From: an uncultured Acidobacteriota bacterium
GTDB lineage: Bacteria; Acidobacteriota; Blastocatellia; RBC074
Direction of reading: 5' to 3'
DNA length: 64,000 nt
NCBI GenBank assembly: GCA_963743045.1
Contig: CAVUOF010000002.1
Location: 108,993-172,992, forward strand
The translations under genes and the position numbers were made by a program. Under the pieces are notes generated by a model, which was not told where the DNA came from, ran no database searches, and saw only the letters and a list, made by a program, of their open reading frames with translations. Below are positions 3,820 to 23,025 of this stretch, piece after piece (the stretch's first letter is position 1; each line of letters starts with the position of its first letter).

Positions 3820-3822
3820 CGC

Positions 3823-4447: not shown

Positions 4448-4834
4448 CTATTTCTTAAGCGTGCGAATGAACGCGACTATTTCACGGACCTGGTCGGCGC
4501 TCAGACTCGACCCAAAGGCGGGCATTTTGTCTTTGCCCTTTTGAATGATGTTGGACAGCTGGGCATCCGATAGCTTTTGCACTTCGGCAGACCCGAGAGC
4601 TTTTAGACCCATCTTCTTTCCGGTGGGCGTATTGCCACTGCCGTCAGCACCGTGGCAAATGGCGCACTTCGCTCGGAACGTTGCCTCGCCATCGAGCATT
4701 GCCGCGCGAACGACGGGTGCGTGCCCCGGAAGAAGAACCGCCGTTGCCAAAGCGGCGAACCCAAAGGCCGCCATCATTAACCTTTTCAGTTGGGTGGTAA
4801 CCATTTCAGTCAATCTCCTGTTCACCATTCTCAT
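4448..4834 (-). CDS. class I monohaem cytochrome c
   Basis: Signal/TM segment, a single CAICH motif and a distal KMPAF methionine motif. It is the first gene of the Rieske/cytochrome b operon. Confidence 0.8.
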   Translation of the reverse strand: MRMVNRRLTEMVTTQLKRLMMAAFGFAALATAVLLPGHAPVVRAAMLDGEATFRAKCAICHGADGSGNTPTGKKMGLKALGSAEVQKLSDAQLSNIIQKGKDKMPAFGSSLSADQVREIVAFIRTLKK

Positions 4835-8226: not shown

Positions 8227-9126
8227 TTCTCTTCTGGGACGACCTCGACCGAGCAGGGCGCATGCGTAGCCACGTAGGACGAGACACTTCCGATCAGGAA
8301 GCGCTCTACGGCCCCCATTCCTCGGGCGCCAACGAAGATGCAGTCAGCTTCCCAGCTTTTTAGCTTCGCTGATCAGCAACTGGCGTGCGCCTTCATGTTT
8401 CATCACTTTGGAGACCTTCAACCCCGAACGCTTCAATCTCGCGACCGCCGTCTCGATCATTTCAGCCACTCGTGCCTTTTCTTCAGCGATCCACTCAGCC
8501 AGGACGGCGTTCGCGTAATCACCGTCGATTAGAGGAAGCACCGCAAAGCCGTTGACTATCCGTACCTCGCTCCGTTGCGGCCAATGGCGCGCGGCCACAG
8601 CTTTCACCGCCGCCTCGGCTCCCCGAGAGCCATCCACGCCTATGATCACGCGAACTGGCTTCCCCAACTCCTTCTCACGGCCACGCGCAATGCGCACGGT
8701 GCTGTGGGCTGCATGCAGCACTTTTTGCGAGACGCTGCCCAGCAGCAGACGTCCTAAGCCCGAACGTCCATGAGAGCCCAGGACGATCAAATCTGCCTTC
8801 AAGTTCTCTGCCCTTTCCAGAATCAGGCGCGCAGGAGATCCAGCCAGGGCCTCCGAATGAATCTTCCACTCAGGGAATGACGACTTCAGCAGGGCCTGCG
8901 CGCGCTGGGCGATCGCCAGAGCGTCTTTACCTCCCTGCTCCAGGTAGCTGGTGAATTTGGTTTCAACCATCCCCAAACTGCTCGGCAGGGGCATCCACTC
9001 CGTGTGAACCGACAAGATATGGACCTCAGTCTTTCTGGGAAGCCCAGCTCGTTTCAGGTCAGCCAGTGCTGCCTTGGCGCATTCTGATTCGTCATAGGCA
9101 ATCAGGATTTTCAACATGTCCGTCAC
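8223..9126 (-). CDS. tandem-domain universal stress protein, frame-broken near 8345
   Basis: [16 protein letters not shown] and [36 protein letters not shown] mark the first domain. A second USP domain continues in another frame as [37 protein letters not shown]. It aligns end to end with 29884..30804. Confidence 0.85.
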
Positions 9127-9229
9127 AGATCGCCCCTCGTCTCAGCTCTCAAGCGTAAAATTCGCTATTGCGAAAACGATTCGGCCCGATAACGTGATGG
9201 CCCCACGGATTCGTGACCGGTCAAATTCC

Positions 9230-9896
9230 TCAGATCGGCGAAATCGTGAGATGGTCTCTGACTAACACAACTCCCGGGGCATGGCTGACAGCGCCTACAA
9301 TTGCCCGCTTCTTCTCCCATGAATTGATCGACCCAGAGAGTGTTACCGTTCCATTGCTCACATTGACATCTATGCGATAAGCCTCACGATCAGCGCGTCG
9401 CTCGAGTGCGTTTTCAATTACCCTTCGTACAGTGGTGGGGCCAACGTCCATGGGATTGACCACCAGCTTGTTGACTACACCCCTGACGCCAAGCAAATTG
9501 CGGACCGCCCGCTCAGCGTCTTCACTCTCGCTCAGATAAGCCACGACGCCTTCCAGAGTTACCCAGCCATCCGCAACTGTGGAGCGAATCTGTTGATCGG
9601 GAATGAGCACGTTCCATTCGAGCGCTCCGCGGACCGCTTGAGCAATGTCGGTGTCGGTACGGAAAAGCCACATGGTATCTTCACCTGGATGTCGTTGGCC
9701 ACATCAAGCACGCCACTCACGCGGTGAGCTGCCTCCAATGCAGCCACTTTCTTTGCATAACTGCTTCACCGGTACCGGTAAGCGTGACGACGCCTTTATC
9801 TACCTCGACTCCGACTTCGGTTTCCTCGACTCGATTATCCCAGCGGAGTTCGTGCAGCACGTCATGATGAATTTGTTCATCGGTTCTTGATTTCAT
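9230..9896 (-). CDS. BON-domain protein, paralog of 6776..7441, frame-broken near 9775 and 9665
   Basis: The ATG at 9896 follows an AAAGGAGG RBS. The sequence MKSRTDEQIHHDVLHELRWDNRVEETEVGVEVDKGVVTLTG...SINSWEKKRAIVGAVSHAPGV aligns by eye with the other copy. Confidence 0.8.
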
Positions 9897-9966: not shown

Positions 9967-10326
9967 TTAGACATTCGGGTGGACGACCTGAAGCGAGCTG
10001 ACCGGAGTAGTCACAAAGCGCTGGCCGTTGGAGCTGAACTCCATCCGAAGTCCGACTCCAAGCCAGCCGAGCTTGATCATCCAGCCTCCAAAGGTTGAGC
10101 CGTTCACGGTCGCATCAACAGGTTCCAAAAAGTGCTTGCCGCCCTTAAGAAGCACGTGCCCGGACTCTGGGTCGAGAAGTGATATCTCGTAGTCGCTATT
10201 GAGGGTGCTAGCGCATATCGTGTCGCTGGGCATCAGGGCGGACAACATCACACCCTCAAGCTTGTCGCTCCACTTGATTGCCTCATCCAATGTGCAGCAC
10301 TCCGGCGGATCGTATGTGGTAAACAT
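9967..10326 (-). CDS. hypothetical protein (119 aa)
   Basis: Intact ORF sitting directly between a sigma-54-like promoter and the BON/USP genes. I did not recognise any domain. Confidence 0.5.
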   Translation of the reverse strand: MFTTYDPPECCTLDEAIKWSDKLEGVMLSALMPSDTICASTLNSDYEISLLDPESGHVLLKGGKHFLEPVDATVNGSTFGGWMIKLGWLGVGLRMEFSSNGQRFVTTPVSSLQVVHPNV

Positions 10327-10401
10327 GGCGTTTTCGAGTCTTGACTCCGGCTAGCTTGTCAAGCACTCCTCCTTTCGATAAGATTCATCCGCTATCGTAC
10401 G

Positions 10402-10417
10402 CGCAATCGGTGTGCCC
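10402..10417 (-). promoter_or_regulatory. sigma-54 type promoter (reads GGGCACACCGATTGCG on the minus strand)
   Basis: Correct spacing, about 75 nt upstream of the ATG at 10326. It would drive the hypothetical-BON-USP gene string. Confidence 0.65.
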
Positions 10418-11078
10418 AGCGGACAGTTGGTCAGGCTGCGCATCGATCGTTATGGTTGCGAGCTCAGATTCAGAGTTGTTCAGATAGTTGATGCGCCGGT
10501 CCCCCCAGGTTCGCCGCGTTCTTAAACCATCAACTCTCGAAGGCGATCCTTGCTGCGATAGGAGTCAATCGCGAATCGAATACCGAAGACCTTCCATTCG
10601 TAGAACTACGCACCTCGTGGGGAATATTTCGCAAGAGCGTAAGCAGTTCTGTCATCGCCTTCGATGACATAAGCATGGGGGCCGTTTTTGAAACTGAGCG
10701 ATCGTAAGGGCTGGATACTCAGGTGACATCGCACTCCACTCACCTGATCATTCGTTGCGACATTGTGGATCTGACTCAGTGTCAATAATCTGGAACAATA
10801 GTTGCCCATGGCGATGCCGATCGGCAGACGATGGCGTTAGCCGGACGAGCGTGGTATCGGCTGTCCTGGCCGGTCGGCTTTACCGCGCAAGGACTCTGTG
10901 CAGAAGGTCGATTCAATCGTCGAACGAAGCGCCATGGCGCTGCATTCGGGAGCGACATCCGGGTACCTGTCGATCAACAAACAATCAAATTGATGATTAT
11001 CGCCATCAGGATCGGTCACCTTGTCGAGCCGACCGGTCATTAGCAACTGAGCCTCGCTCTCATCAGGTATAGGCAATT

Positions 11079-12170
11079 ATGCGGACTCTAAAGACTGGTC
11101 TCATCACAGCTTTCTTCTTAATGACTGTGACGATGCTTATCGCCCCAAAGTTCGTCGGCTTGACCGTGACGCTTGCTCAGGACACAGCTCCGACCAAGTC
11201 GGGCAACGGCTCCAAGCCAGCCAAGAACGCACCGCAAGCCAAAGATAACCAGCCGGTCGACGCAAGCCAGTACGTAGGCAGCAGCGCCTGTGCGGAATGC
11301 CACACCGACATCGCTGCGTTCTTCTCCGTCACTGCGCATCACAAGACTCTGGGCGGGAACAGACCGGTGGATTTGCAAGGGTGCGAGGCATGCCATGGCC
11401 CCGCCGGCAAACACATCGAGTATTACCAGACGGCGCAGAAATTGGTGAAGGAGGGCAAGGACGAGGAAGCCGGCAAGATGTACGCAGATGAAGCCAGGAG
11501 CGCTGCAGCCAAGATGCGCAGCTTTGGCAGTCTTTCGTCCGCCGCGGCATCCGCGGTTTGTCTCAAGTGTCACGAAGGCACCGAGGGCAAGAGTGGCGAA
11601 CGATTCAATTTCAGGCGGAGCGAACACTTCCGCCACGGCGTATCCTGCCTGGATTGCCACTCGTCGCATTCACCAAAGCGTACTGAATTCCTTCTGCGGG
11701 CTGCCGAACCGGACGGCTGTTACCAATGCCATGCCGAGCAGAAGACCTCTTTTGCGCGCCCGTTCCATCATAAAGTCCCTGAGGGTGGAATGAAGTGCTC
11801 TGATTGTCATAATCAGCACGGCGGCTTTTACGTCAAGCAACTGCGCACCTGGGCCAGCGGCGATATCAATTGCGTCAAGTGTCACACGGACAAGGCCGGC
11901 CCCTTCGTCTACGAGCATGCTCCGATCAAGATCGAGGGCTGTCAGGCCTGTCACACCCCGCATGGTTCAACCAACCCGCGGCTCCTGAAGCGCAATGAGA
12001 TCAGGTTCCTGTGCCTCGAGTGCCACTCAAATACGCCTGGGATTCCTGCCGACTCGGAGGGTCCGGCGACGCCGTCATTTCATAATCTCGCAACAACGCG
12101 GTTCCAGAACTGCACAACTTGTCACGCCATGATCCATGGCTCCAACGTCAACAATCGCTTCTTCCGCTAG
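11079..12170 (+). CDS. periplasmic decahaem cytochrome c, MtrA/DmsE/MtoA family
   Basis: Signal peptide plus exactly 10 CXXCH motifs in 363 aa. The C-terminus [16 protein letters not shown] is typical of the family. Confidence 0.9.
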
Positions 12171-12189
12171 GAAGAGGACGGAGGTTTAC

Positions 12190-14279
12190 ATGTCAGCAGG
12201 GCGCCACGTAGTCTGGAAGTCGTCCGGCATGATTGCCTTCCTGACTCTGCTCGTTATGGTCGCCGCGGACTCTCCCACGGCGGGGCAGAGTAGCGTTGAA
12301 AAAATCGAAACGTCTCAGCAAGCCAAGAACCCCATCGACAGCAGTATTCGTGCGCGCGAAGCAGTCCAGAAACCCAATGACACGCAGACACCCCCCGAGA
12401 CCGGGCGTGTGGCTGGCGATTATTCCTGGTCGTCATCAATGGAAGTCGGCTACAGATTCGTAGACAGCGGCGGGAGCCGTGACAAGTTCCTCTCAGACCT
12501 CTATCTCAAGGACGGGCTCAGGTTGCTTGATTTCCAGGCAGACGCTCGCTCGGTCTCTGGGCATGGCACATTCTTCGACTTTTTTCGTATGGACGTCACG
12601 AACGGTGGAGGTGACGCGAGCCAGTACTACTCCACTCGAATGGAGAAGGATCGCACTTATCGGTTCGATGCCTCATATCGCGTATTCAACTTCTACCGGT
12701 TTCTGCCGGCCGTTGCTCTCAACCAGCACAATCTCAACCTCGAACGCCGGGTCGGAGACTTCAATCTCAAGCTCTTCCCGCAACGCGCAGTAAGGGTCAA
12801 TTTCGGTTATTCGCGCAGTAGCTCAACCGGGCCATTCTTTACAACCTATGACTATGACCGCGACGAGTTTCCTATCAAAGGGAAGAGCCGCTGGGAATCC
12901 AACGATTATCGCGTGGGTGTGGATGGCACTTATCATCGCTGGGATTTCTTCCTCAGTGGGGTTTACAGGTACTTCAAGAACGATACGCAGTATTTCACAG
13001 GATCCTGGCACGCTCAATCTGGGCAACAATCCGTCACCCAACAGCAGCTTGACGTTCTTCAACCGCAACGACCCGGCGCGCGCCAAAGCCGGAGTACTGA
13101 CGGGGAGCATACATGGCAACATCACTCCCCGTTTTCATCTGGTTATCTCCGGGACTCACACCGAGGAGACGCCAGCGCCCCGAGCAGTTTGAACAGTCGG
13201 CCGGGACGTCGTCCTCCGGCTCCAAGGTCCTCTTCAACAACATCGTTAGCGACTATCACGTAAAGCGGCCGAGCACGCTTGTTGAAGCCGGAGCCACATA
13301 CGACATAACTGACCACATTTCGATCAACGATAGTTTCCGCTATTACACCTTCGACATCCGTGGAGATGTTGCTTCGCTGACGACAACCGTACGAACCCCG
13401 CAAAATGTCGCGCCGGTGGCAACGGCACGGGACAGCCAGCTGACAGACTACTCTTCGGTCTGGAATACACTTCAATTGCAGTTCAATTACGGTCGCAAGT
13501 TTTCAGCGAGCCTGGGCTGGCGGTTCACTCATCGCGACACAACACTCTCTCCTGCTACAACCGGGGACCCCCTCGAATCGGACACGCAGAATAACAACTC
13601 ATTTATTGGCGGCGTCCGCTATCGTCCTGTCAAGAGCGTGAGTCTGTTCTTCGATTATGAGAGAGGGGAGTCTGACAATGCGTTTGTCAGAGTCAACCCA
13701 CTCGACTTCCAGCGTGTGCGCATCCGTGCCAGTTTTCAAGCGAAACCGACGTTGCTTATCCACTCAACGTTTACCGCGACCGACACCACCAATCCAACTC
13801 CTCAGGTAAACAATGACGGCAATTTCCGGCAATTCTCGTTTTCCGCAGACTGGCAGCCGAAAGAGAAATTCTGGATAAGCGGCGGCTATAACTATGATTC
13901 TCTCTTCAACACCGCTGACATCCTCTTCTTCTTAAATAGTGTGCAGAACAATGGCAGGTCTGTCTATTATTCGCGCCAGCACGTTGTCTTCCTTGATTCA
14001 AGGTTTGCGTTGACAAATCGACTCGACCTCTTCCTCGTCTACCGTTACCTCAAGGATTCCGGTGCTCCTTCGTCGGTCGATGTTCCGCCGGGCCCCAATA
14101 ATTTCATCACGTCGTTTCCACTATTTCGCCACAATCCCGAGGCACGCATCGCATATCGGTTCAACGACCGCGTCACCGGAAATCTGAGCTATCGCCATTA
14201 CAGCTATAACGAAGAACTACAGAGCATTCAGGACTATCGTGCTAACATCTTCACCACCAGTTTGCGTTTCACTTTTTGA
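12190..14279 (+). CDS. outer-membrane beta-barrel porin, MtrB/MtoB/PioB-like, frame-broken near 13005 and 13165
   Basis: Signal peptide, about 696 aa of alternating Y/F/R-rich beta-strand pattern, and a C-terminal SLRFTF aromatic terminus. It lies immediately downstream of the decahaem gene. ORFs 12136..13263, 12848..13192 and 13113..14279 join to form it. Confidence 0.65.
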
Positions 14280-14285
14280 ATCAAC

Positions 14286-14661
14286 ATGGAGAAGACTATG
14301 AACTTAAGGACTCTGAGATTGAAGACAGCCTTGATCACGACAATTCCGGCGATCGCCCTGGTTATCGCAACCTGGTCCGCGAACGGAATACAGGCAGCCG
14401 GCTCGGCTGTCCAGGACGCTAAAGCGACATTCAACTCCAAGTGCGCATCCTGTCACGGACTCGATGGCGGCGCGGCGACTGCCAAGGGCAAGGAGCTCAA
14501 GATGAAGGATCTTCGTTCACCCGAGGTTCAGGGCATGTCCGACGACCAGCTGTACAAGGTAATCGCCAAGCGGCAAGGGTAAGATGCCACCATACGAGAA
14601 GAGCCTTGGCGCCGACACCTGCCATAAGCTGGTCGCTTATATTCGCAGCATGAAGAAATGA
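14286..14661 (+). CDS. class I monohaem cytochrome c (in the MtoD-like position), frame-broken at ~14571
   Basis: Signal peptide and CASCHG. Removing one C at 14571 restores KGKGKMPPYEKSLGADTCHKLVAYIRSMKK. Confidence 0.75.
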
Positions 14662-14686
14662 CTCTTACGATTAGCGAGGTAGCTGA

Positions 14687-15316
14687 ATGGCGGAAACATC
14701 GACAATTGTCGTCGGCGTTATTCTGGTCACAATCGCGCTGATTGCCTATCTGGTTCTTCGCCCATCAATCACGGCGACACGAGGCGGGAAGATTCTGGCT
14801 TTCGTTGCATTAATGGTCTTTCCCTTACTGGCAGGAACAATGGGCGCTGGCAAGCACCTTGAGCATTCGAAGACAACGCAGTTCTGTCTCTCCTGCCATG
14901 TCATGGAAGACTACGGGAAAAGCCTGCTCAGAGATGATCGGAGCTTCATTCCGGCAGTCCATTATCAAAACCACCTCGTGCCGCACGACAATGCCTGCTA
15001 TACGTGCCATACAACCTACGCGATGTATGGCGACATGCGGGCAAAGCTGCAGGGCCTGCGACACGTATACATTTACTACCTCGGGACCATTCCCCAGCCA
15101 ATCAAGCTCCGTGAGCCCTACAACAATCGCGAGTGCCTTCATTGCCACCTGGGTTCAAGATCGTTCGAAGAAGGCGCCACGCACAATCAGGATCCGCGGA
15201 CATTGCCTATGGTGAAGTCTAACCAGCTCGGCTGCACATCGAGCGGGTGTCACAACACCGTTCACAATGTTGCCGAATTGAAGGACGCGACCTTCTGGAA
15301 GGAGCCAGCACAATGA
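14687..15316 (+). CDS. NapC/NirT/CymA-like membrane-anchored multihaem quinol dehydrogenase
   Basis: N-terminal TM helices, then CLSCH, CYTCH and CLHCH plus a CX4CH (CTSSGCH). The motif spacing resembles the NapC/NirT family. Confidence 0.7.
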   Translation: MAETSTIVVGVILVTIALIAYLVLRPSITATRGGKILAFVALMVFPLLAGTMGAGKHLEHSKTTQFCLSCHVMEDYGKSLLRDDRSFIPAVHYQNHLVPHDNACYTCHTTYAMYGDMRAKLQGLRHVYIYYLGTIPQPIKLREPYNNRECLHCHLGSRSFEEGATHNQDPRTLPMVKSNQLGCTSSGCHNTVHNVAELKDATFWKEPAQ

Positions 15317-15513
15317 AGCCGGAACCCACCTGGCTGGAGAAGAGAATCCGCTTGGCTGGTGTTTTGCTTATCGCCGGACTACTGGTGGAACTCGTCACGC
15401 TGCACTGGTCGCATCCGGCGGCATTTCTCTTCTTTATGTTCTTTGGTGGGTCACTTATGGCGCTGGGGATCGCCATCTACCTCATATCTCTGGTCTCGAG
15501 GCACCACGTGTAG
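15313..15513 (+). CDS. small two-TM membrane protein
   Basis: Its ATG overlaps the NapC-like stop (ATGA). The sequence is hydrophobic: LAGVLLIAGLLVELV...FLFFMFFGGSLMALGIAIYLI. Confidence 0.4.
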   Translation: MKPEPTWLEKRIRLAGVLLIAGLLVELVTLHWSHPAAFLFFMFFGGSLMALGIAIYLISLVSRHHV

Positions 15514-15575
15514 CTTCGGGAAGGTTCACAAAGTCGCCACAGGCTCATTTATTTCATTGCTTTATTGTGCCACCT

Positions 15576-15718
15576 GTAGGGGCAGGGCTTGTCCCTGCCC
15601 GCCCCGTGCCGTCCGGCACGGGTAACAGTTTCAAGAACCCTTGCTACTTGAACTACAACCGATAATGGTTACCCGCGCCGGACGGCACGGGACGGGCAGG
15701 GACAAGCCCTGCCCCTAC
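15576..15718. repeat. palindromic REP-like element, family A (GTAGGGGCAGGGCTTGTCCCTGCCC...GGTAAC arms)
   Basis: Two ~51-bp inverted arms around a 40-bp spacer. A second copy is at 36542..36679. Confidence 0.8.
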
Positions 15719-15815
15719 AAGGTTGTCGGCGAGTGCGGCATTAGCGAGAGAGCATCCACGCTCTTACTACCCCGACTTCACTGACCAGGCATCTGGATAA
15801 TGTAGAATGTAGGAG

Positions 15816-17231
15816 ATGCCAAAAGACAAAGTACTCGTCGTCGATGACGACTCGGCTATCCGCTACACCTTGACCGAGGCACTGCGTGCCTGGGGCTACG
15901 AACCGCTGGATGCCCCCACGGTTGCAGCTGCCCTGGAAGCTTTTGATTCGGAGCAGCCTGCGGCGGTGTTGCAGGATATAAACCTGCCAGACGGATCCGG
16001 CCTCGACGCGCTCATCGAATACAAGAAGCGGCAGCCTCAGGCGATTGTCATTATCATCACCGGCGAAGTGAATCTTGATGCCACAATTGCGGCGTTGCGG
16101 GGTGGCGCGTACGACTTCATCAGCAAGCCCATCAGGCTCGCTGAACTCCAGGTCACAATCCGCAACGGTATCGAAGCCGGGAGACTCCGTCGCGAAGTCC
16201 GGTATTTGCGTCGCCATCAGGAAAAAAGGCTCAGCTTCGATCAAATCGTTGGCACATCCGAGTCAATGAATGAAATGATCACGCTGGCTAAGAAGATCTC
16301 GGCAAGCGAGGTATCGTCCGTGTTATTGATTGGTGAAAGCGGAACCGGCAAGGATGTTGTAGCCAAGGCCATACATTACGGCTCGCCGCGCGCGGATCAA
16401 CCCTTCGTTGCGATAAATTGTGCAGCTATACCCGGAACGCTGATCGAGACCGAACTCTTCGGTCACGAGAAGGGTGCTTTTACCGACGCTCGAGCAAAAA
16501 AGGAGGGTCTGTTCGAGCAAGCACAGGGCGGAACTTTCTTCCTGGACGAGATATCCTCACTCGAGCTGGGTCTCCAGGCAAAACTGCTGAGGGTGCTCGA
16601 GGAGGGAACATTCCGCCGAGTTGGCGGATTGAGGGACCTGCCACTCGATGTGCGGATAATAGCCGCGTCGAATCGAGACCTTAGACTTGACAGCGAGGCC
16701 GGGCGTTTTCGGCTGGACCTTTACTACCGGCTTTCGGTGATACAAATCGATCTGCCGCCGCTCCGCGAACGTGGCGACGACGTATTGCTACTGGCAAACT
16801 ACTACATCGCTCACTTCAGCGAACGCTTGAAAAAACGCGTCAGCAACCTGACGCCGGAGGTCGAGGATATATTCCGCCGGTACCATTGGCCTGGCAATGT
16901 CCGTGAACTGCGGAACGTCATCGAGCGGTTGATGATTCTGGAGGATTCAGATTCGATCACGGCGACCTGGCTGCCGCGCGACCTGATGAAACGAGACCAG
17001 GCTGCCAATATACCCACCGTCGTCGCTGCTGCGCCAACAACCCAAGGCGTGCCTCCGTCACTTCGATTGCCTGATGGCGGGATCAATCTCGAACAGCTCG
17101 AACTGGCACTGGTCAGACAGGCTCTTGAGAGAAGTGGCGGCAATCAAACGCGCGCTTCAGAATTGCTTGGAATCTCGCGCGATCAGCTCCGTTATCGTCT
17201 GAAGAAGATTGACGACTCGCTGGCGCAGTAG
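15816..17231 (+). CDS. sigma-54-dependent response regulator (REC + AAA+ + Fis-type HTH, NtrC family)
   Basis: Receiver domain, Walker A GESGTGK, GAFTDA loop, and the C-terminal [19 protein letters not shown]. Confidence 0.92.
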
Positions 17232-17332
17232 GACGAGCGACGGAAAGGGCGAGTGCGCATTTTTCCGCTCATCAACTCGCAAAATCACCCAGGACGCTCA
17301 AGTTCCTGGCTTTTAGTTTCAATTCTAAGGCG

Positions 17333-17348
17333 CGGCACAGGCATTGCT
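17333..17348 (+). promoter_or_regulatory. sigma-54 type promoter CGGCACAGGCATTGCT upstream of the tandem USP gene
   Basis: Correct spacing, about 50 nt upstream of the ATG at 17395. Confidence 0.65.
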
Positions 17349-17394
17349 CCTGCCCAGAGTGGAGGACATTGCGAGTCAAGCAATGTGAAAAGCA

Positions 17395-18342
17395 ATGCAA
17401 GAAGCAATGAAGATTCTGGTAGCCGTTGATGGTTCAGCGTGTGGCCTTGCGGCGGTCAAGGAAGCGGCTGGAACGCCCTGGCCTCGTGGAAGTCTGGTAA
17501 AGATTCTTTCAGTAATGACGGAGATGGGACCCGCCTCCCAATGGGCAATGCCGCTCCCGGCGGAGTACTTACGAGGAATTGCAGCGGGCCTGGGAAAATC
17601 GCTCCTTGGCGGCTATTACGCAGGCTCTGGCAGAGTTCGCGAAGATCGCTGGATCGCAGACGGAAACAATGTCAAAGATAGTCAAAGGCAATCCGAAGAC
17701 TGCGATCCTGGACGAGGCTGAACACTGGGGCGCAGATCTAATCATCCTGGGAACACACGGATACAACGTTCTCGAGAGGCTCTGGCTGGGTTCCGTTTCA
17801 CGTGCCGTAATAGCGCATGCGAAGTGCTCGGTTCACGTCGTGAGATGCGGTCGCGACCAGGCTGATCAGCCAAAGGGCAGGAGGATATTGCTCGCTATAG
17901 ATGGATCGGGATTCAGTGATATGGCGGTACCAGGAGATCGCCGAGCCGGCCGTGGCCGGCCGGAACCGAAATCAACCTGCTTTCCGTCGTAGAACTGCCG
18001 ACCACAACAACAGAGCTGTGGGCTATGCCGGAAACCTATTATTCACAACTGGAGGAGAGCGCAACCAGGCAGGCTAATGCAGCGATTGACCGAGCCGTTC
18101 AATCCTTCAACGCCGTCAAGCGCGAGGTACCTCTCACGCTGTCAACCGAGATAGTTGTCGGCCGTGCAACGGAGACGATCATGAATTCCGCTAAGTCGTG
18201 GGATGCTGATCTTGTTGTGCTCGGATCTCATGGAAAGCATGGGCTGGAGCGGTTTCTCCTGGGATCGGTCTCGCAGGATGTGGCTTACCACGCTCGCTGT
18301 TCAGTGGAGGTCGTCCGTCGCAAGAAGGTGCGAAGCCAATGA
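17395..18342 (+). CDS. tandem-domain universal stress protein, frame-broken at ~17580, ~17928 and ~17945
   Basis: Three ORF pieces join. Recognisable segments are MKILVAVDGS, DLIILGTHGYNVLERLWLGSVSRAVIAHAKCSVHVVR, ILLAIDGSGFS and DLVVLGSHGKHGLERFLLGSVSQDVAYHARCSVEVVR. Confidence 0.8.
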
Positions 18343-18351
18343 AGCCGGGCA

Positions 18352-18808
18352 ATGAGAAAGGATGCGATGCAGATTGGCCCACTCAAAGAGAACGATTCAC
18401 TGGCGATTCTCCGAAGAAGCAGTCTGGGGCGCCTCGGCTGCGTCGACCAAAACGCGCCATACGTAGTGCCGGTCAACTACCTCTTTGACGGCAAAGACAT
18501 TTACATTCATTCTTTGCCGGGTCGGAAGATTGATGCCATGCGAGCCAACTCCCGTGTCTGCTTTCAGGTAGATGAGATCACGGATGCGTTTCACTGGCGG
18601 AGTGTGATTGCCTTCGGAAATTACGAGGAAATCTCCGATCCGGAGACGCGGGAGAGCGATGTTGGGCAAACTCTTCACCCGGTTGCCGCATATGACACCG
18701 GTTGAAACCAGGATGACGCGAGGCATGAGCGAGATGATTCTCTTTCGCATCAAAGTAGGCACGATTACAGGAGTCGGCGAAGACTGGGGAGCAGGCGGAT
18801 CGGCCTGA
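18352..18808 (+). CDS. pyridoxamine 5'-phosphate oxidase family (flavin-binding split-barrel) protein, frame-broken near 18660
   Basis: Contains [56 protein letters not shown]...WRSVIAFG. The tail continues in ORF 18608..18808. Confidence 0.7.
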
Positions 18809-18927
18809 TTTGCATCGAGCGCGGCGAAAGATTCGCAAAGAACGCAAGACCACGAAACAGAGAATTACCGTTCTCCTTCGTGGTCCTGTGGTCTTTGGTC
18901 CACCATTCGCAGTTGCGTCTGATAGTT

Positions 18928-20478
18928 ATGGCAGATGATCAGCAGAACGCCGCGTCCTTGCGGATGAGTGAGGCCAGACTGGCCGGAATTGTCGCGTCGG
19001 CAATGGATGCAATCATCACTGTCGACGAGAGCCAGCGCATTGTCCTCTTTAATGCATCGGCCGAGAGAATCTTCCGCTGCCCGGCAAAGGACGCTTTAGG
19101 CCAGAGCCTGGACCGTTTTCTTCCGGACCGCTTTCGCATCGCACATCGCGAACACATCCGTGTATTCGGCGAGACGAACGTGACTCAGAGGACAATGGGA
19201 AGCGCGCGCACCCTTTACGGACTGCGTTCCGATGGCGAAGAGTTTCCGATCGAGGCCTCAATTTCACAAATTGACTCCGAAGGCCACAAGTTCTTCACCG
19301 CAATCGTCCGCGATATCAGCGAGAAGAAACGTCTCGAAGCCCAGTTCCTGCGGGCGCAGCGAATGGAGAGCATAGGCACTCTGGCCAGCGGTATCGCGCA
19401 TGATCTGAACAATGTGCTCTCTCCCATCCTGACCGCAATCGAGCTGCTGCAGATGCGCTTCACCGATGAAAGCAGCCAGCGCCTGCTCAACATCCTTCAG
19501 ACCAATGCCGTCCGCGGCGGCGAAATGATCAAGCAGGTGCTCTCGTTTGCGCGTGGTGCCGAAGGCAATTTCACACCCCTGCAACCGACACATCTGATCA
19601 AGGAGATCATTAAGATCCTCGCCGACACTCTGCCAAAACATATCGAGATCACCTTCTCGATTGATCCGGACTTGTGGCAGGTTTCCGGCGATGCGACTCA
19701 ACTGCACCAGGTTCTGATGAACCTCTGTATCAACGCGCGTGACGCGATGCCGCATGGCGGAAGCCTGCGGATCGAGGCAGAGAATGTTGAGATAGACGAA
19801 CACTCCGCGCGAATGGCAGTTGATGCCAAACCCGGAAAATACGTCTCTGTCGGAGTTGTTGACACCGGGCTCGGCATAGCCGAGCAGAATCTGAGCAAGA
19901 TCTTCGACCCATTCTTCACGACCAAGGACTATGGACAGGGGACAGGCCTGGGTTTATCGACTGTTGCCGGTATCGTTCGCAGCCACGGCGGCTTTCTGAA
20001 TGTCTACAGCGAAGTCGGCAGGGGTGCGAAATTCAAGGTCTACTTGCCGGCCATCCAATCGGCTGAGGCAACAGCCGCACGGTCAGTGCCGCACCAATTG
20101 CCCTCGGGCAACGGCGAAATGATTCTGGTCATTGACGATGAACATGCAATCCGGGAAGTTGCGAGGGAGATCTTGAACACCTTCGGCTATCAGGCTCTGA
20201 TTGCAAATGACGGTGCCGACGCGATTGCAGTCTTTGCTTCACACAAAGATCAGGTTCGTCTTGTGATAACGGACATGATGATGCCGTACATGGATGGCCC
20301 GGCTACGATACGAGCGCTGAGGAGGCTCGATCAGAGTGTCAGGATCATTGCCACCAGCGGGCTGAAGGCCGATGACAAGATGGCCGAAGCGTCGCAGCTA
20401 GGCGTTAAGACCTTTCTTCCGAAGCCGTACACTGCAGAGACTCTGTTAAACACGATAGCCGCTGTCTTGAAGGAATGA
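18928..20478 (+). CDS. PAS-domain hybrid sensor histidine kinase / response regulator
   Basis: PAS domain, H-box [10 protein letters not shown], HATPase N/G boxes, and a C-terminal receiver (ILVIDDE...DMMMPYMDG). Confidence 0.9.
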
Positions 20479-20491
20479 CCCTTATTCCGGG

Positions 20492-20723
20492 TCATACTCT
20501 ACGCGCGGTGACTCTGTGCGTGATTCGATGGTGCTCAGCAAACCACGCGTGGACGTGTGCCGCTTCCCCGGATAGCCACGAATAGAACAAGCCGGCAGCG
20601 AAAAGCAGGCCCGTCACCGCCACAATCTGAAGAGACAACACGATGAGCGGCAGCAAAAGCACAACCGCCAGCAACGCCGAGCAGAACCAGACCAACAAAT
20701 TCGATCACATCAACCCACCGCAT
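20492..20723 (-). CDS. small hydrophobic membrane protein, possibly frame-broken near 20690
   Basis: The ATG at 20723 follows a GTGAGGTGG RBS. The hydrophobic continuation lies in ORF 20492..20698. Confidence 0.3.
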
Positions 20724-20814
20724 GGTGCCCACCTCACTTTCTTAGGGTAATTCACCACCATAATCGACAATGGCAAGAAGTATGCCCGGAGACGTTTATA
20801 GGGCCCACCGGCTC

Positions 20815-20944
20815 AGTATGGAGTGCGGCGACTTGTCGCCGCTTTTGATTTAATTGCTGCAGCACTACGAGTTACAGGCTCGATTCTTCTTCGTCACTGC
20901 AGTAACTAAATCAAAAGCGGCGACAAGTCGCCGCACTCCATACT
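20815..20944. repeat. 130-bp MITE/REP-like element, family B (TIR AGTATGGAGTGCGGCGACTTGTCGCCGCTTTTG)
   Basis: About 33-bp terminal inverted repeats. A second full copy is at 57544..57672 and a partial copy lies at the window end. Confidence 0.85.
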
Positions 20945-21090
20945 CAATCAGTCGACGGCTTTCAACCGGCTGGCTTTCGGGGCCTGACCTGCTGCGTAAT
21001 GTTCCCCAGCCTCGAGAGGAATTTGCGCGGGAAAACCCACAGCGGGAGGATGATTTGGCAGGTTAGCAGGCGAAAGCGCAGCGCAACGGG

Positions 21091-21106
21091 TGGCACAGAG
21101 CTTGCC
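21091..21106 (+). promoter_or_regulatory. sigma-54 type promoter TGGCACAGAGCTTGCC upstream of the hemerythrin and citrate synthase genes
   Basis: Near-perfect consensus, 46 nt upstream of the ATG at 21151. Confidence 0.75.
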
Positions 21107-21150
21107 CCTCGACTGCTGACTAAGGCGTAAATCGAACGGAGTAAATTGTC

Positions 21151-21705
21151 ATGTCCTATCCGATACACACCCTGAAACATGAACACCGTGTCATCGAGCA
21201 GGCGCTTCGCGCTCTCGACGGAATATGCAAGAGGTTTGCAAGCGGAGAGCGGGTGCCCTCTGAAGCCCTTTCAGAGCTCCTCGAATTCATTCACACGTTC
21301 GCAGATGCCTTTCATCACGGGAAAGAAGAGCAACACTTCTTCCCGGCTCTGGAACGCAAGGGAATTGTTCGCCGGGGTGGGCCGCTCGAAGTGATGGAGC
21401 GCGAGCATGAAATTGAGCGGAGACTTGTGCGGGAGCTCGGACAGGACGTCAAGGCATACCAGACCTCAAGACCCGGGTCCTGGCAACACTTTGTCCAGAC
21501 CTCGACGCTCTTTATCGAGCTCCTGACAGGACACATCCAGAGAGAGGATCAGGTCCTTTTCCGCATTGCGGAAGCGATACTCGATGAGGCCGACAATGAA
21601 TACCTGAGCTCCGCTTTCAGAAATGCCGAAAAAGAGATCGGCCGCGGCGTGCTGGAAAATTGCGAACAAAAGGCAGCCGAACTCGAAAGGGCCTGGGCCG
21701 CATAG
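21151..21705 (+). CDS. hemerythrin-domain protein
   Basis: Carries the H..E / HH..EE / H...E metal-ligand pattern: LKHEHRVIE, FADAFHHGKEEQHFF, MEREHEIERRL, HIQREDQVLF. Confidence 0.8.
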   Translation: MSYPIHTLKHEHRVIEQALRALDGICKRFASGERVPSEALSELLEFIHTFADAFHHGKEEQHFFPALERKGIVRRGGPLEVMEREHEIERRLVRELGQDVKAYQTSRPGSWQHFVQTSTLFIELLTGHIQREDQVLFRIAEAILDEADNEYLSSAFRNAEKEIGRGVLENCEQKAAELERAWAA

Positions 21706-21714
21706 GAGATCGCC

Positions 21715-23025
21715 ATGAAGGAGACGCTTACAGTCACTGACAATCGGACCGGAAAGCAATATGAGCTGTCAATCGACAAAGGCACTATACGTGCCATGGA
21801 CTTGAGACAGATCAAGATGTCGGAAGGCGACTTCGGGCTGATGACCTATGACCCGGCCTTCACCAACACTGCCTCTTGCCGGAGCAGGATAACCTTCATC
21901 GATGGTGACAAAGGAATACTTCGTTATTGCGGATATCCGATCGAGCAGCTTGCCGAGCAGAGCACGTACCTTGAGGTTGCATACCTGGTCCTTCACGGGG
22001 AGCTGCCGACCGCGCAGCAACTGGAGGAGTGGACGTGGCATATCACGCATCACACCTTCATCCACGAAAACATCAAGAAATTCATGGATGGCTTTCACTA
22101 CGATGCGCACCCGATGGGCATGCTCGTGGGAACCGTAGGAGCTCTGTCAACTTTCTATCCGGATGCAAAGAGAATCTTCGTGGCTGAAGCGCGACGCAAG
22201 CAGGCCTATCGGCTGATCGCCAAGGTGGCCACGATTGCCGCGTTCGCCTACCGTCACAGCATCGGAATGCCGTACGCCTACCCGGATAACGATCTGAGCT
22301 TTACTGGCAACTTTCTCAACATGATGTTCAAGACCACAGAGCTCAAGTATCATCCGAACCCTGTCCTGGAACGGGCGCTGAATGTACTCTTCATTCTGCA
22401 CGCAGATCATGAGCAGAACTGCAGCACCAATGCCATGAGAAGCATCGGAAGCTCGCACGCCGATCCCTATTCCGCCGTAGCGGGTGCCGCAGCGGCCCTT
22501 TACGGCCCGCTGCATGGTGGCGCCAATGAGGCAGTGCTCCGCATGCTCAACGAGATTGGCTCTATTGGAAATGTCCCCGAATACGTTGATCGCGTAAAAA
22601 AGGGAGAGGTCCGGCTCATGGGCTTCGGCCACCGGGTCTACAAGAACTACGACCCGCGGGCCCGAATCATCAAGCAGGCCGCCCATGATGTCTTCGAAGT
22701 AACAGGAACCAACCCGGTACTCGAGATAGCGCTCGAGCTGGAGCGGATTGCTCTTGAAGACGAATACTTCATTAGTCGGAAGCTCTATCCGAACGTAGAT
22801 TTCTATTCAGGAATCATCTACCAGGCAATGAATTTCCCGGTGGACATGTTCCCGGTGCTCTTTGCCATCCCGCGGACTGCCGGCTGGGTCGCCCAGTGGG
22901 AGGAGATGTTGCTGGACAGTGAGCAGAAGATCGCTCGGCCACGTCAGATCTATCTGGGACACGGCCAACGGGATTATGTTCCTATAGAGGAGAGGCCCGC
23001 AAAAATGGATTCGGCGGCGGTTTAA
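21715..23025 (+). CDS. gltA: citrate synthase
   Basis: Carries the HADHEQNCST, LYGPLHGGANE and MGFGHRVYKNYDPRA signatures over the full length. Confidence 0.95.
   Translation: MKETLTVTDNRTGKQYELSIDKGTIRAMDLRQIKMSEGDFGLMTYDPAFTNTASCRSRITFIDGDKGILRYCGYPIEQLAEQSTYLEVAYLVLHGELPTAQQLEEWTWHITHHTFIHENIKKFMDGFHYDAHPMGMLVGTVGALSTFYPDAKRIFVAEARRKQAYRLIAKVATIAAFAYRHSIGMPYAYPDNDLSFTGNFLNMMFKTTELKYHPNPVLERALNVLFILHADHEQNCSTNAMRSIGSSHADPYSAVAGAAAALYGPLHGGANEAVLRMLNEIGSIGNVPEYVDRVKKGEVRLMGFGHRVYKNYDPRARIIKQAAHDVFEVTGTNPVLEIALELERIALEDEYFISRKLYPNVDFYSGIIYQAMNFPVDMFPVLFAIPRTAGWVAQWEEMLLDSEQKIARPRQIYLGHGQRDYVPIEERPAKMDSAAV

What the first reader, a model, noticed from the sequence alone, without database searches (positions are those of the whole stretch)
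11079..15513. Complete MtoAB/PioAB-style porin-cytochrome electron conduit with its own quinol dehydrogenase
Four or five co-directional, tightly packed genes make up this cluster:
- a signal-peptide decahaem protein (10 CXXCH, MtrA/DmsE-type C-terminus);
- a roughly 696-aa beta-barrel ending in ...SLRFTF;
- a monohaem class I cytochrome c;
- a NapC/NirT/CymA-like membrane cytochrome (3 CXXCH plus one CX4CH);
- a small 2-TM protein.

No extracellular MtrC/OmcA-type decahaem is present. The composition therefore matches the mtoA-mtoB-mtoD-cymA arrangement reported for Sideroxydans (Fe(II) oxidation) rather than the Shewanella mtrCAB arrangement. If the host really is an acidobacterium-like organism, this would predict extracellular electron exchange: iron oxidation, or reduction of iron or humics.
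Basis: partly seen in the sequence, partly recalled or inferred. Interest (0 to 1): 0.7.

Follow-up and report, generated by a model that had tools for sequence, protein, structure and literature searches.

The report
Acidobacterial MtrAB-type outer-membrane electron conduit
This is a five-gene operon for a cytochrome-in-a-barrel "wire" that carries electrons across the outer membrane of a soil acidobacterium (class Blastocatellia); it is a divergent member of the known MtrAB/MtoAB/PioAB kind, and its barrel has gone unannotated because standard family models miss it.

Summary
Window 11079-15513 (+) carries five tightly packed genes:
- a signal-peptide decahaem (10 CXXCH) that passes the curated MtrA/DmsE-family cut-off;
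- a 695-aa Cys-free barrel ending SLRFTF;
- a class I monohaem cytochrome c;
- a NapC/NirT-family tetrahaem (3 CXXCH plus a conserved CX4CH);
- a 66-aa two-helix membrane protein.

The barrel matches no Pfam or NCBIfam MtrB/PioB model. Even so, profile-profile comparison with true MtrB/PioB proteins gives 99.4% probability (E 2e-21) over nearly its full length, while reversed controls give about 1.5%. An AlphaFold model of an intact, 77%-identical homologue matches Shewanella MtrB best (TM 0.65-0.69; other barrels 0.47 or less).

Decahaem-then-barrel order is kept in all 48 related Blastocatellia/Pyrinomonadaceae loci that include upstream DNA.

Caveats:
- The barrel (two sites) and the monohaem gene (one site) are broken by single-base insertions. 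Such frameshifts occur window-wide, so assembly error is more likely than decay.
- The decahaem forms its own acidobacterial clade, equidistant from MtrA, DmsE and PioA-like proteins.
- The direction of electron flow (Fe(II)/humic oxidation or Fe(III)/humic reduction) cannot be read from sequence.

Verdict: a new member of a known kind, of moderate interest.

The parts
11079..12170 (+). Gene A: periplasmic decahaem c-type cytochrome with a signal peptide, MtrA/DmsE family
   Evidence: 10 CXXCH. NCBIfam TIGR03508 scores 242 bits against a cut-off of 192.2. Shewanella baltica MtrA (6r2q_A) matches at E 3e-30. Identity to Photobacterium MtrA is 30%, E 3e-33. An identical protein, P0107, is on a 177-kb NCBI/ENA contig.
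12190..14279 (+). Gene B: outer-membrane beta-barrel, 695 aa after repair, a remote MtrB/PioB homologue. It is interrupted by two single-base insertions.
   Evidence: The repaired ORF has no Cys and ends SLRFTF. It aligns full length with intact homologues. AF2 and Foldseek place MtrB as the best match. hhalign against the MtrB/PioB family gives 99.4%. There is no direct Pfam or NCBIfam MtrB_PioB hit.
12994..12998 (+). Frameshift site 1 in the barrel gene: an extra base in ...TATTTC-A-CAGGAT..., shifting frame 1 to frame 2
   Evidence: Three-frame translation and alignment with homologues reading NDTQYF-QDPGT. 42 related barrel ORFs give colinear tblastn segments in the two frames. Deleting base 12997 restores the frame.
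13166..13170 (+). Frameshift site 2 in the barrel gene: an extra base in ...GAGGAG-A-CGCCAG..., shifting frame 2 to frame 0
   Evidence: Homologues read THTEER..EQFEQ across the junction. Deleting base 13169 restores the frame.
14286..14661 (+). Gene C: periplasmic class I monohaem cytochrome c, 124 aa after repair, with one single-base insertion near 14571
   Evidence: It has CASCH and a downstream GKGKMPPY stretch. Pfam Cytochrome_CBB3 and Cytochrom_C match. The best PDB matches are Kuenenia c-552 (E 4.5e-11) and CcoP. A homologue follows the barrel in many related loci.
14687..15316 (+). Gene D: inner-membrane NapC/NirT/NrfH-family tetrahaem cytochrome with two N-terminal membrane helices, a candidate quinol/quinone oxidoreductase
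   Evidence: Pfam PF03264 scores 38 bits against a cut-off of 24.1. The NrfH model matches at E 2.7e-11, below its cut-off. All four motifs, including CLSCHVM and the CX4CH, are invariant in 12 sequences. Two hydrophobic helices are predicted.
15313..15513 (+). Gene E: 66-aa membrane protein with two helices, translationally coupled to D through an ATGA overlap
   Evidence: Conserved at 66-83% identity directly after D in 10 related loci, with a shared LVEL..WSHP..AFLFF core. It matches no Pfam or NCBIfam family.

Best explanation
The five genes form one operon that encodes an electron path through the whole cell envelope.

**Proposed path.** The decahaem (A) is exported to the periplasm and threads into the 26-strand-type barrel (B), as MtrA does in MtrB. 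Its last haem therefore reaches the cell surface. On the periplasmic side it exchanges electrons with the small class I cytochrome c (C). C in turn connects to the membrane-anchored NapC/NirT-type tetrahaem (D, with its small partner E), which exchanges electrons with the quinone pool. C could also connect to the nearby Rieske/cytochrome b complex or to an oxidase.

**What the missing surface cytochrome implies.** No surface multihaem cytochrome is encoded, so the outside partner is probably a soluble or colloidal redox species: Fe(II), chelated Fe(III), or humic quinones. A bulk mineral is less likely.

**Shown versus inferred.**
- Shown: the family identity of A, B, C and D, the MtrB-like fold and homology, and the conserved gene linkage.
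- Inferred: complex formation, operon expression, quinone coupling, and the direction of flow.

**Direction.** I slightly favour electron uptake (oxidation of extracellular Fe(II) or reduced humics, as in the Sideroxydans Mto pathway), at about 45%. Outward respiration onto Fe(III) or humics under oxygen limitation stands at about 40%.

**Frameshifts.** The three frameshifts are most likely assembly errors, so the host's real operon is probably intact.
For: **Component identities.**
- A passes the curated MtrA/DmsE decahaem cut-off and matches MtrA of the solved Mtr complex.
- B: an AF2 model of a 77%-identical intact homologue has pLDDT 87.9. Its best PDB match is MtrB at TM 0.65/0.69, against 0.47 or less for all other barrels. 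Profile-profile homology to bona fide MtrB/PioB proteins is 99.4%, E 2.4e-21, nearly full length, with reversed controls at about 1.5%.
- D passes Pfam NapC/NirT, and its four haem motifs are invariant.

**Gene linkage.**
- Decahaem immediately upstream of the barrel in 48 of 48 related loci that have upstream DNA.
- C follows the barrel in many loci, and D plus E follow C in 10-12 loci.
- The closest relative's contig has the same A-B-C-D-E order, all intact.
- In other relatives the same A-B core sits next to ImcH-like or CbcL-like inner-membrane cytochromes instead of D-E. This shows the core is routinely paired with a quinone-linked module.

**Frameshifts look like errors.** About 12 frameshift events lie scattered over the 27 kb of the window that has homologue coverage. 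They include cytochrome b, Usp and other unrelated genes.

**Uptake lean.** There is no MtrC-type gene. A His/Met class I cytochrome is in the operon. The component list parallels the Mto cluster, MtoA, MtoB, MtoD/PmcA, ImoA (PMC13390432).
Against: - No experiment or expression data exist for this lineage.
- The barrel scores nothing against Pfam PF11854 or TIGR03509, whereas true members score 400-590 bits. Membership is therefore remote.
- The A-B complex could not be modelled.
- C shows no specific similarity to MtoD: only generic class I cytochromes appear among the 60 PDB matches shown, of 78 in total.
- D has no detectable solved relative by sequence, and its single-sequence model failed.
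- Evidence against the uptake lean: NapC/NirT enzymes usually oxidise quinol. The ImcH/CbcL-like partners in relatives are associated with outward transfer in Geobacter. Crp/Fnr regulators sit beside the cluster in 21 loci, and the Usp/hemerythrin/BON neighbours here suggest low-oxygen induction.
- MtoA/PioA do not form function-specific clades in published trees (PMC8805035).
- If the frameshifts are real, the barrel and gene C are dead.
Confidence: 0.8

Rival explanations
1. The anatomy is the same, but the operon serves outward respiration. Quinol is oxidised by D-E, and electrons pass through C and A-B to extracellular Fe(III) chelates, Mn or humic substances when oxygen runs short.
For: - NapC/NirT-family proteins are typically quinol dehydrogenases (family knowledge; Pfam hit).
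- Relatives pair the same core with ImcH-like and CbcL-like cytochromes.
- Crp/Fnr regulators flank the cluster in 21 loci.
- The window's neighbours are Usp, BON, hemerythrin and a PAS histidine kinase.
- Acidobacteriota porin-cytochrome clusters are transcribed in anoxic peat (bioRxiv 10.64898/2026.05.27.727921).
Against: - There is no surface multihaem reductase in the window.
- The operon's periplasmic carrier is a His/Met class I cytochrome, a type that is usually high-potential and is unusual in outward pathways (inference).
- The component list mirrors the Mto uptake cluster.
Confidence: 0.4
2. The cluster is a decaying relic. The three frameshifts are real mutations, so the barrel and the monohaem cytochrome are not made, and the conduit is non-functional in this organism.
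For: - Three frameshifts fall within 1.6 kb of the operon.
- The public assembly itself carries the break, because the identical 388-aa C-terminal fragment P0016 is a called protein.
Against: - Frameshifts of the same kind are spread across the whole window, at roughly one per 2 kb of homologue-covered DNA. They hit housekeeping-type genes such as cytochrome b, Usp and a NuoG-like gene.
- Outside the three single-base sites, the coding sequence is 88% identical to an intact relative with no stop codons.
- All three are one-base insertions.
Confidence: 0.1
3. It is a DmsEF-type conduit that feeds an extracellular non-haem reductase (DMSO, iodate or similar) rather than exchanging electrons with iron or humics.
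For: The best-scoring curated family is named "DmsE family decaheme", and DmsE is as similar to A as MtrA is (115 against 113 bits).
Against: - A genuine dmsEFAB locus has a TAT-signal molybdopterin subunit, an Fe-S subunit and a chaperone right after the barrel.
- Nothing of the sort follows the barrel in the window or turns up as a conserved neighbour in the 51 related loci.
- The only molybdopterin ORF in the window is a NuoG/formate-dehydrogenase-like gene 28 kb away on the other strand.
Confidence: 0.03
4. The barrel is an ordinary porin or transporter, and the decahaem is a purely periplasmic electron carrier. Their adjacency would then have no mechanistic meaning.
For: The barrel matches no curated MtrB/PioB model and gives only weak generic OMP_b-brl hits.
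Against: - The pairing is invariant in 48 of 48 loci.
- Homology to MtrB/PioB is significant over the full length, with clean controls.
- The structural match is specific to MtrB.
Confidence: 0.03

Closest known systems
Mto cluster of Sideroxydans lithotrophicus ES-1 (slit_2494-2498: MtoD, MtoA, MtoB, ImoA/CymA-ES, PmcA)
   Same: The component list matches: decahaem, barrel, monohaem periplasmic cytochrome c, and an inner-membrane tetrahaem cytochrome, with no MtrC-type surface cytochrome.
   Different: - The decahaem sits in a separate acidobacterial clade, about 30% identical to MtrA, DmsE and PioA-like references.
- The barrel is only a remote homologue (11% identity in hhalign).
- There is one monohaem gene rather than two, and it has no specific MtoD similarity.
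- D has an extra N-terminal helix, a CX4CH fourth site and a small partner, E.
- The gene order differs.
- The host is presumably a heterotrophic acidobacterium.
PioAB(C) of Rhodopseudomonas palustris TIE-1
   Same: A decahaem plus barrel with no surface cytochrome. Homologues in Acidobacteria have been noted in a similarity-network study (PMC10654088).
   Different: - There is no HiPIP (PioC).
- The barrel is 695 aa, whereas PioB-sized barrels are about 750-810 aa and hit TIGR03509 at more than 400 bits.
- A has no long PioA-type N-terminal extension.
MtrCAB of Shewanella (solved complex, PDB 6R2Q)
   Same: MtrA is the best solved relative of A, and MtrB is the best structural match of the barrel model. 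The decahaem-then-barrel gene order is the same.
   Different: - There is no MtrC.
- There is no N-terminal CXXC motif in the barrel. It has no cysteine at all, whereas the MtrB-family consensus shows CxxC.
- The barrel fails the Pfam and TIGRFAM models.
GSU2203 (OmcK) / GSU2204 pair of Geobacter sulfurreducens
   Same: - A scores 215 bits on the GSU2203 decahaem model.
- The barrel family recurrently gives weak hits (E 1e-5 to 1e-6) to the GSU2204 model. That model is itself described as an MtrB/PioB-family barrel (PMC13188914).
- Bona fide MtrB/PioB proteins hit the same model weakly too.
   Different: - Both scores fall far below the curated cut-offs (325 and 350 bits).
- GSU2204-family proteins carry a CXXCH and sometimes selenocysteine, whereas this barrel has no Cys.
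Mtr-like porin-cytochrome clusters reported in other Acidobacteriota (for example "EET2" in Bryobacterales peat MAGs)
   Same: The same phylum, the same idea of sequence-divergent Mtr-like conduits, and synteny conserved across MAGs (bioRxiv 10.64898/2026.05.27.727921).
   Different: - A different class (Blastocatellia rather than Terriglobia).
- Those clusters were selected for having extracellular multihaem cytochromes, which this one lacks.

Membership tests
MtrAB/MtoAB/PioAB porin-cytochrome conduits | Periplasmic decahaem cytochrome of the MtrA/DmsE family (TIGR03508) | tested here: met
   242 bits against a cut-off of 192.2. Controls: MtrA 322, DmsE 333, a PioA-like protein 258 bits. 10 CXXCH.
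MtrAB/MtoAB/PioAB porin-cytochrome conduits | Barrel recognised by the curated MtrB/PioB models (Pfam PF11854, NCBIfam TIGR03509) | tested here: not met
   There was no hit at E<=1 for the repaired barrel, for intact homologue P0002 or for 9 distant relatives. Positive controls score 406-590 bits.
MtrAB/MtoAB/PioAB porin-cytochrome conduits | Barrel homologous to MtrB/PioB at superfamily level | tested here: met
   hhalign of the family profile (73 sequences) against 25 PF11854 proteins gives Prob 99.4%, E 2.4e-21, 572 columns. Reversed-sequence controls give 1.3-1.5%, E 0.035.
MtrAB/MtoAB/PioAB porin-cytochrome conduits | Large (about 26-strand) barrel fold like MtrB | tested here: met
   AF2 of the 77%-identical intact homologue gives pLDDT 87.9, pTM 0.79 and 26-28 strand elements. 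The Foldseek top hit is 6r2q_B at TM 0.65/0.69, with the next hits at 0.47 or less.
MtrAB/MtoAB/PioAB porin-cytochrome conduits | Decahaem gene directly upstream of, and co-directional with, the barrel gene | tested here: met
   The gap is 19 nt in the window. The order is kept in 48 of 48 related loci with upstream DNA.
MtrAB/MtoAB/PioAB porin-cytochrome conduits | Cytochrome physically inserted in the barrel, with transmembrane electron transfer | not testable with these tools
   No multimer or haem-aware modelling, and no experiment, was available.
MtrAB/MtoAB/PioAB porin-cytochrome conduits | Intact reading frames | tested here: not met
   There are two single-base insertions in B and one in C. 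Frameshifts are window-wide, which points to assembly error.
Mto-type (MtoAB/PioAB) as opposed to MtrCAB-type | Absence of an MtrC/OmcA-type outer-surface decahaem in the cluster | tested here: met
   The only multihaem ORFs in the 64-kb window are A, D and the multihaem gene beside the Rieske/cyt b genes. A control mtrCAB locus shows MtrC directly upstream.
Mto-type (MtoAB/PioAB) as opposed to MtrCAB-type | Decahaem groups phylogenetically with MtoA/PioA | tested here: inconclusive
   In a small NJ tree, the acidobacterial decahaems form their own clade. Bit scores are 110-115 to MtrA, DmsE and two decahaems partnered with PioB-sized barrels.
Mto-type (MtoAB/PioAB) as opposed to MtrCAB-type | Monohaem carrier orthologous to MtoD or PmcA | tested here: inconclusive
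   C is a class I cytochrome c. The 60 PDB matches shown, of 78, are c-552, CcoP, c6 and bc1 cytochrome c proteins, and no MtoD entry is among them. PmcA was not available.
DmsEFAB extracellular reductase systems | DmsA/DmsB-type molybdoenzyme genes following the barrel | tested here: not met
   These genes are absent from the window cluster and from the conserved neighbours of relatives. They are present in control locus L055.
NapC/NirT/NrfH/CymA tetrahaem quinol dehydrogenases (gene D) | Pfam PF03264 match, membrane anchor, four haem sites | tested here: met
   PF03264 scores 38 bits against a cut-off of 24.1. Two N-terminal helices are predicted. There are 3 CXXCH plus a CX4CH, all invariant, and the first site is CXXCHxM as in NrfH.
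NapC/NirT/NrfH/CymA tetrahaem quinol dehydrogenases (gene D) | Equivalog-level identity with NrfH, NapC, TorC or CymA/ImoA | tested here: not met
   NrfH scores 43.7 bits against a cut-off of 134, and NapC/NirT scores 35.4 against 310.6. There was no solved relative by sequence.
Geobacter Pcc (OmbB-OmaB-OmcB type) | Octahaem periplasmic and dodecahaem surface cytochromes flanking the porin | tested here: not met
   The haem counts are 10, 1 and 4, and there is no surface cytochrome.

The most novel reading that the evidence does not exclude
Blastocatellia are abundant soil bacteria usually regarded as aerobic heterotrophs. Under this reading they use the surface-cytochrome-less conduit, its high-potential-type monohaem cytochrome and the neighbouring Rieske/cytochrome b complex to take up electrons from extracellular Fe(II) or reduced humic substances. 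That would be an unrecognised lithotrophic or mixotrophic iron/humic-oxidising capacity spread across a whole acidobacterial class. It would also be invisible to current iron-gene annotation, because the barrel is always called hypothetical.
Probability: 0.25. Interest if true: 0.7.

Novelty: new member of a known kind. Interest (0 to 1): 0.38.

Why it matters
**An annotation gap.** The barrel half of this conduit is labelled "hypothetical protein" in every public record seen. It scores nothing against the models that annotation pipelines and iron-gene tools rely on: TIGR03509 is the MtrB model named by FeGenie, and the barrel gives no hit to it. These genomes therefore show a lone "DmsE family decaheme" rather than a porin-cytochrome pair.

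**The family is large.**
- More than 100 protein clusters at 90% identity.
- 2,509 representatives at 50% identity with E<=1e-3.
- 51 species-level genomes, nearly all titled Blastocatellia, Pyrinomonadaceae or Acidobacteriota.

**Consequence.** Recognising the pair would add a widespread soil lineage to the organisms predicted to exchange electrons with iron or humic substances. It would also give a clean natural series for comparison, in which one outer-membrane core is swapped between NapC-type, ImcH-like and CbcL-like inner-membrane modules.

**Limit.** This is not a new principle. Mtr-like conduits in Acidobacteria have been noted since 2013-2014 and again in 2023 and 2026.

Tried and rejected
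1. **Direct family scans of the barrel.** Pfam and NCBIfam scans of the barrel fragments, the repaired barrel, an intact homologue and 9 distant relatives gave no MtrB_PioB hit. Searching the family profile against PDB sequences gave no MtrB hit at E<=10. A comparison of the profile with a single MtrB sequence was weak, at Prob 17%. Only the comparison of two family profiles resolved the question.
2. **Sigma-54 promoter.** A candidate TGGAACAATAGTTGC sits at 10791. The pattern is not enriched in the window (42 matches against 32.5 expected) and is absent upstream of the decahaem in 31 of 34 relatives. I dropped it as a link to the downstream sigma-54 response regulator.
3. **Sigma-70 promoter and terminator scan of 10300-15900.** Nothing rose above the shuffled expectation in a useful position.
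4. **Single-sequence AlphaFold of D.** pLDDT was 40.8, and only the two membrane helices were confident. It was unusable for fold search.
5. **PDB sequence search with D.** No relative was found.
6. **Look-up of the window's own contig through P0016.** It is not on record. The window's genome is also not among the GTDB representatives scanned, so the source organism is inferred only from relatives.
8. **Rejected idea.** I first took the 684-707-aa 11-haem proteins next to the barrel in some relatives for missing MtrC-like surface cytochromes. They carry a C-terminal FdnI-type membrane b-cytochrome domain, so they are CbcL-like inner-membrane proteins.

Full report
**1. What is in the sequence**

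Window 11079-15513 holds five co-directional genes on the + strand.

Gene A (11079-12170, 363 aa) has exactly ten CXXCH motifs. It has 13 further histidines and an N-terminal hydrophobic signal segment.

The barrel gene is not one ORF in this assembly. The reading frame moves from frame 1 to frame 2 near 12997, and from frame 2 to frame 0 near 13169. Intact homologues of 693-702 aa align with the window through all three frames. Removing one base at each site gives a 695-aa product with no stop, no cysteine and the terminal ...SLRFTF.

Gene C (14286 to about 14661) carries CASCH. It is also frameshifted near 14571. Repair restores a 124-aa class I cytochrome c with a GKGKMPPY stretch.

Gene D (14687-15316) has CLSCH, CYTCH, CLHCH and CTSSGCH. 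Gene E is best read as 15313-15513, 66 aa with two hydrophobic helices, and its ATG overlaps D's stop codon.

Spacing between genes is 19, 6, about 25 and -4 nt, which fits a single operon. Simple promoter and terminator scans added nothing.

Across all six frames of the window, the only other ORF with several haem motifs is a gene at 1378-2743 on the minus strand. So there is no MtrC/OmcA-type gene.

**2. Are the frameshifts real?**

I used ORFs from related loci as tblastn queries and looked for colinear matches in different frames. These turned up at about 1800-1925, 3181-3237, 3355-3380, 12935-12987, 14572-14579, 18657, 26300, 33178, 41760, 42296 and 53021. That is roughly one per 2 kb of the 27 kb that has homologue coverage.

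Other genes are broken too:
- Cytochrome b is in three pieces and the adjacent multihaem gene in two.
- The Usp gene at 17395-18342 is in three pieces. It is a single 314-aa gene on the closest relative's contig.

The breaks are present in the public assembly, because the 388-aa C-terminal barrel fragment exists as a called protein, P0016. All three breaks in the cluster are single-base insertions in otherwise well-conserved coding sequence. Assembly error is therefore the likelier cause. Real decay of just this operon is unlikely (about 10%).

**3. Family identity of each component**

*Gene A.* It passes NCBIfam TIGR03508, "DmsE family decaheme", at 242 bits against a cut-off of 192.2. It scores 215 bits on the GSU2203 model, whose cut-off is 325. 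Its best solved relative is chain A of the Shewanella baltica Mtr complex, 6r2q_A, at E 3e-30. It is 30% identical to a Photobacterium MtrA. Hundreds of homologues in Blastocatellia MAGs are annotated "DmsE family decaheme c-type cytochrome".

*The barrel.* It has no Pfam or NCBIfam family beyond weak generic OMP hits. This holds for the fragments, the repaired protein, the intact homologue P0002 and nine distant relatives. Every public copy seen is "hypothetical protein".

To test remote homology I needed true MtrB/PioB sequences. A tblastn of A against plasmid records found an unannotated mtrCAB locus in Photobacterium. Its barrel scores 510 bits on PF11854 and 551 on TIGR03509. Searching with that barrel gave 69 PF11854 proteins, from which I aligned 25 diverse ones.

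hhalign of the acidobacterial family profile (73 sequences) against this MtrB/PioB profile gives:
- probability 99.4%, E 2.4e-21, over 572 columns that span nearly the whole of both barrels;
- 1.3-1.5%, E 0.035, when either profile is reversed.

An AlphaFold2 model of P0002 built with that alignment has mean pLDDT 87.9, pTM 0.79 and 26-28 strand elements. Foldseek against the PDB ranks MtrB (6r2q_B) first, with TM-scores 0.65/0.69. All following hits are 22-strand TonB-dependent receptors at 0.47 or less.

The recurring weak hits of this family to the GSU2204 model fit the same picture. That model is described as an MtrB/PioB-family barrel (PMC13188914), and bona fide MtrB/PioB proteins hit it weakly too.

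Conclusion on the barrel: it is a distant branch of the MtrB/PioB superfamily that the curated models do not reach.

*Gene C.* The repaired protein matches only generic class I cytochromes c: Kuenenia c-552 at E 4.5e-11, then CcoP, c6 and bc1 cytochrome c. No MtoD entry is among the 60 matches shown.

*Gene D.* It passes Pfam PF03264, NapC/NirT (38 bits against 24.1). It stays far below the equivalog cut-offs for NrfH, NapC and TorC. In 12 sequences from the window and relatives, all four haem sites are invariant, including CLSCHVM (an NrfH-like CXXCHxM) and the CX4CH. D has two N-terminal helices rather than one.

*Gene E.* It has no family but is well conserved next to D.

**4. Conservation and context**

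A scan of one genome per GTDB species found 51 loci encoding the barrel. Most are titled Blastocatellia, Pyrinomonadaceae, Aridibacter or Acidobacteriota. A minority of automated MAG records carry other names.

In every one of the 48 loci that has upstream DNA, the decahaem gene lies directly upstream of the barrel. A class I cytochrome follows the barrel in many loci. D follows C in 12 loci, and E follows D in 10.

The contig of the closest intact relative has the same order. It continues with the same sigma-54 response regulator, Usp, PNPOx-like protein, PAS histidine kinase, hemerythrin and citrate synthase as the window. On its other side it has the same cytochrome c, Rieske, cytochrome b and multihaem set that the window carries at 1378-4834 (-).

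Other relatives lack D-E. Instead they place different genes next to the same core:
- 6-7-haem proteins of about 510-540 aa with an NrfH-like domain (ImcH-like);
- 11-haem proteins of about 700 aa with a C-terminal FdnI-type b-cytochrome domain (CbcL-like);
- a 5-haem NrfB-like protein;
- Crp/Fnr regulators.

So the outer-membrane core is habitually coupled to an inner-membrane quinone-linked cytochrome, but the module varies. This supports a functional link between D-E and A-B in the window.

**5. Mto, Mtr or Dms?**

I obtained reference decahaems from four real loci:
- mtrCAB (L052);
- Shewanella dmsEFAB (L055), with TAT molybdoenzyme, Fe-S subunit and chaperone after the barrel;
- two loci with PioB-sized barrels and no MtrC (L053, L054).

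A is equally distant from all four, at 110-115 bits and 29-31% identity. In a small NJ tree the acidobacterial proteins form their own clade.

The DmsEF reading fails on context, because no reductase genes follow the barrel here or in relatives. The Mto-like label therefore rests on gene content: decahaem, barrel, monohaem cytochrome and inner-membrane tetrahaem, with no surface cytochrome. These are the components of slit_2494-2498 in Sideroxydans (PMC13390432).

Published trees already show that MtoA/PioA are not function-specific clades, and that MtrCAB can run in both directions (PMC8805035). [quoted passage not shown]

**6. Mechanism and direction**

The best-supported reading is a trans-envelope electron path. 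The decahaem sits inside the barrel, the class I cytochrome acts as periplasmic carrier, and D-E forms the quinone-linked membrane terminus.

Points favouring uptake:
- the lack of a surface cytochrome;
- a His/Met class I carrier in the operon;
- the neighbouring Rieske/cytochrome b complex;
- the parallel with the Mto cluster.

Points favouring export:
- the usual quinol-oxidising role of NapC/NirT proteins;
- the ImcH/CbcL-like modules in relatives;
- Crp/Fnr regulators and a stress or low-oxygen gene neighbourhood;
- reports of Acidobacteriota porin-cytochrome clusters expressed in anoxic peat.

I put uptake at about 45% and export at about 40%. No sequence test available here separates them.

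**7. Novelty**

Several papers already point in this direction:
- MtrA-type decahaems in Acidobacteria were noted in 2013 (PMC3669403).
- PioA/PioB homologues in Acidobacteria were noted in 2023 (PMC10654088).
- Mtr-like conduits in Bryobacterales were described in a 2026 preprint.
- A 2018 survey found no CymA homologues in Acidobacteria (PMC6295460). This is consistent with D being a divergent NapC/NirT member.

I found no paper in the searchable library that describes this Blastocatellia cluster.

It is therefore a new, divergent member of a known kind. The practical point is that its barrel escapes current annotation.

Noticed in passing
window, whole length (for example about 1800-1925, 3181-3237, 3355-3380, 18657, 26300, 33178, 41760, 42296, 53021): Frameshifts are scattered through many unrelated genes, at roughly one per 2 kb of homologue-covered DNA. 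The three inspected closely are single-base insertions that are not in long homopolymers. This looks like an error-prone assembly, so any ORF-based reading of the window needs frame repair.
   Followed up: partly
window 1378-4834 (-): A Rieske/cytochrome b complex is encoded here: a class I cytochrome c (4448-4834), Rieske (3823-4272), cytochrome b (2744-3819, in three pieces) and a multihaem c-type subunit of about 450 aa with 9 CXXCH in the two pieces (1378-2731). The same set lies beside the porin-cytochrome cluster in the closest relative, and 9-haem homologues lie near it in several others. It may be the conduit's inner-membrane partner.
   Followed up: partly
window 15816-23025 (+), and 8344-9673 (-): This is a stress or low-oxygen-type neighbourhood, syntenic with the closest relative. 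It holds a sigma-54 response regulator, Usp (in three pieces), a PNPOx-like protein, a PAS-HisKA-receiver kinase, hemerythrin and citrate synthase. Another Usp and a BON-domain protein lie upstream. One-mismatch matches to the -24/-12 consensus sit just upstream of the Usp gene (17333) and the hemerythrin gene (21091).
   Followed up: partly
related loci, for example L004 11181-14778, L020 10609-14430, L018 10715-12250, L045 10064-11680: Relatives place ImcH-like proteins (NrfH-like domain, 6-7 haems) and CbcL-like proteins (11 haems plus an FdnI-type b-cytochrome domain) next to the same decahaem-barrel core, where the window has the NapC-type D-E pair. A Crp/Fnr regulator sits nearby in 21 loci. 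The inner-membrane partner therefore looks modular.
   Followed up: partly
L054 3901-8971: In an unrelated genome, a decahaem and a 751-aa bona fide MtrB/PioB barrel are followed by a ferric-reductase/NOX-type flavocytochrome (Ferric_reduct, FAD and NAD binding domains) and a cytochrome b5. That is an unusual inner-membrane partner for a porin-cytochrome pair.
   Followed up: no
L004, L009, L011, L013, L015, L017, L018, L021, L049, L051 (record titles): Several MAG records that carry this clearly acidobacterial-type cluster are titled "uncultured Heliobacteriaceae", "Heliomicrobium", "Clostridia" or "Chloracidobacterium". These look like unreliable automated names.
   Followed up: no
window 58000-62931: A stretch with strong AT skew (about +0.2) coincides with a 979-aa minus-strand ORF (59992-62931) that has a collagen-like triple-helix repeat match.
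   Followed up: no
window 48519-51463: Two divergently oriented ORFs, 48519-49988 (-) and 49928-51463 (+), each encode only the N-terminal half of a P-type cation ATPase. They are probably further victims of frameshifts.
   Followed up: no
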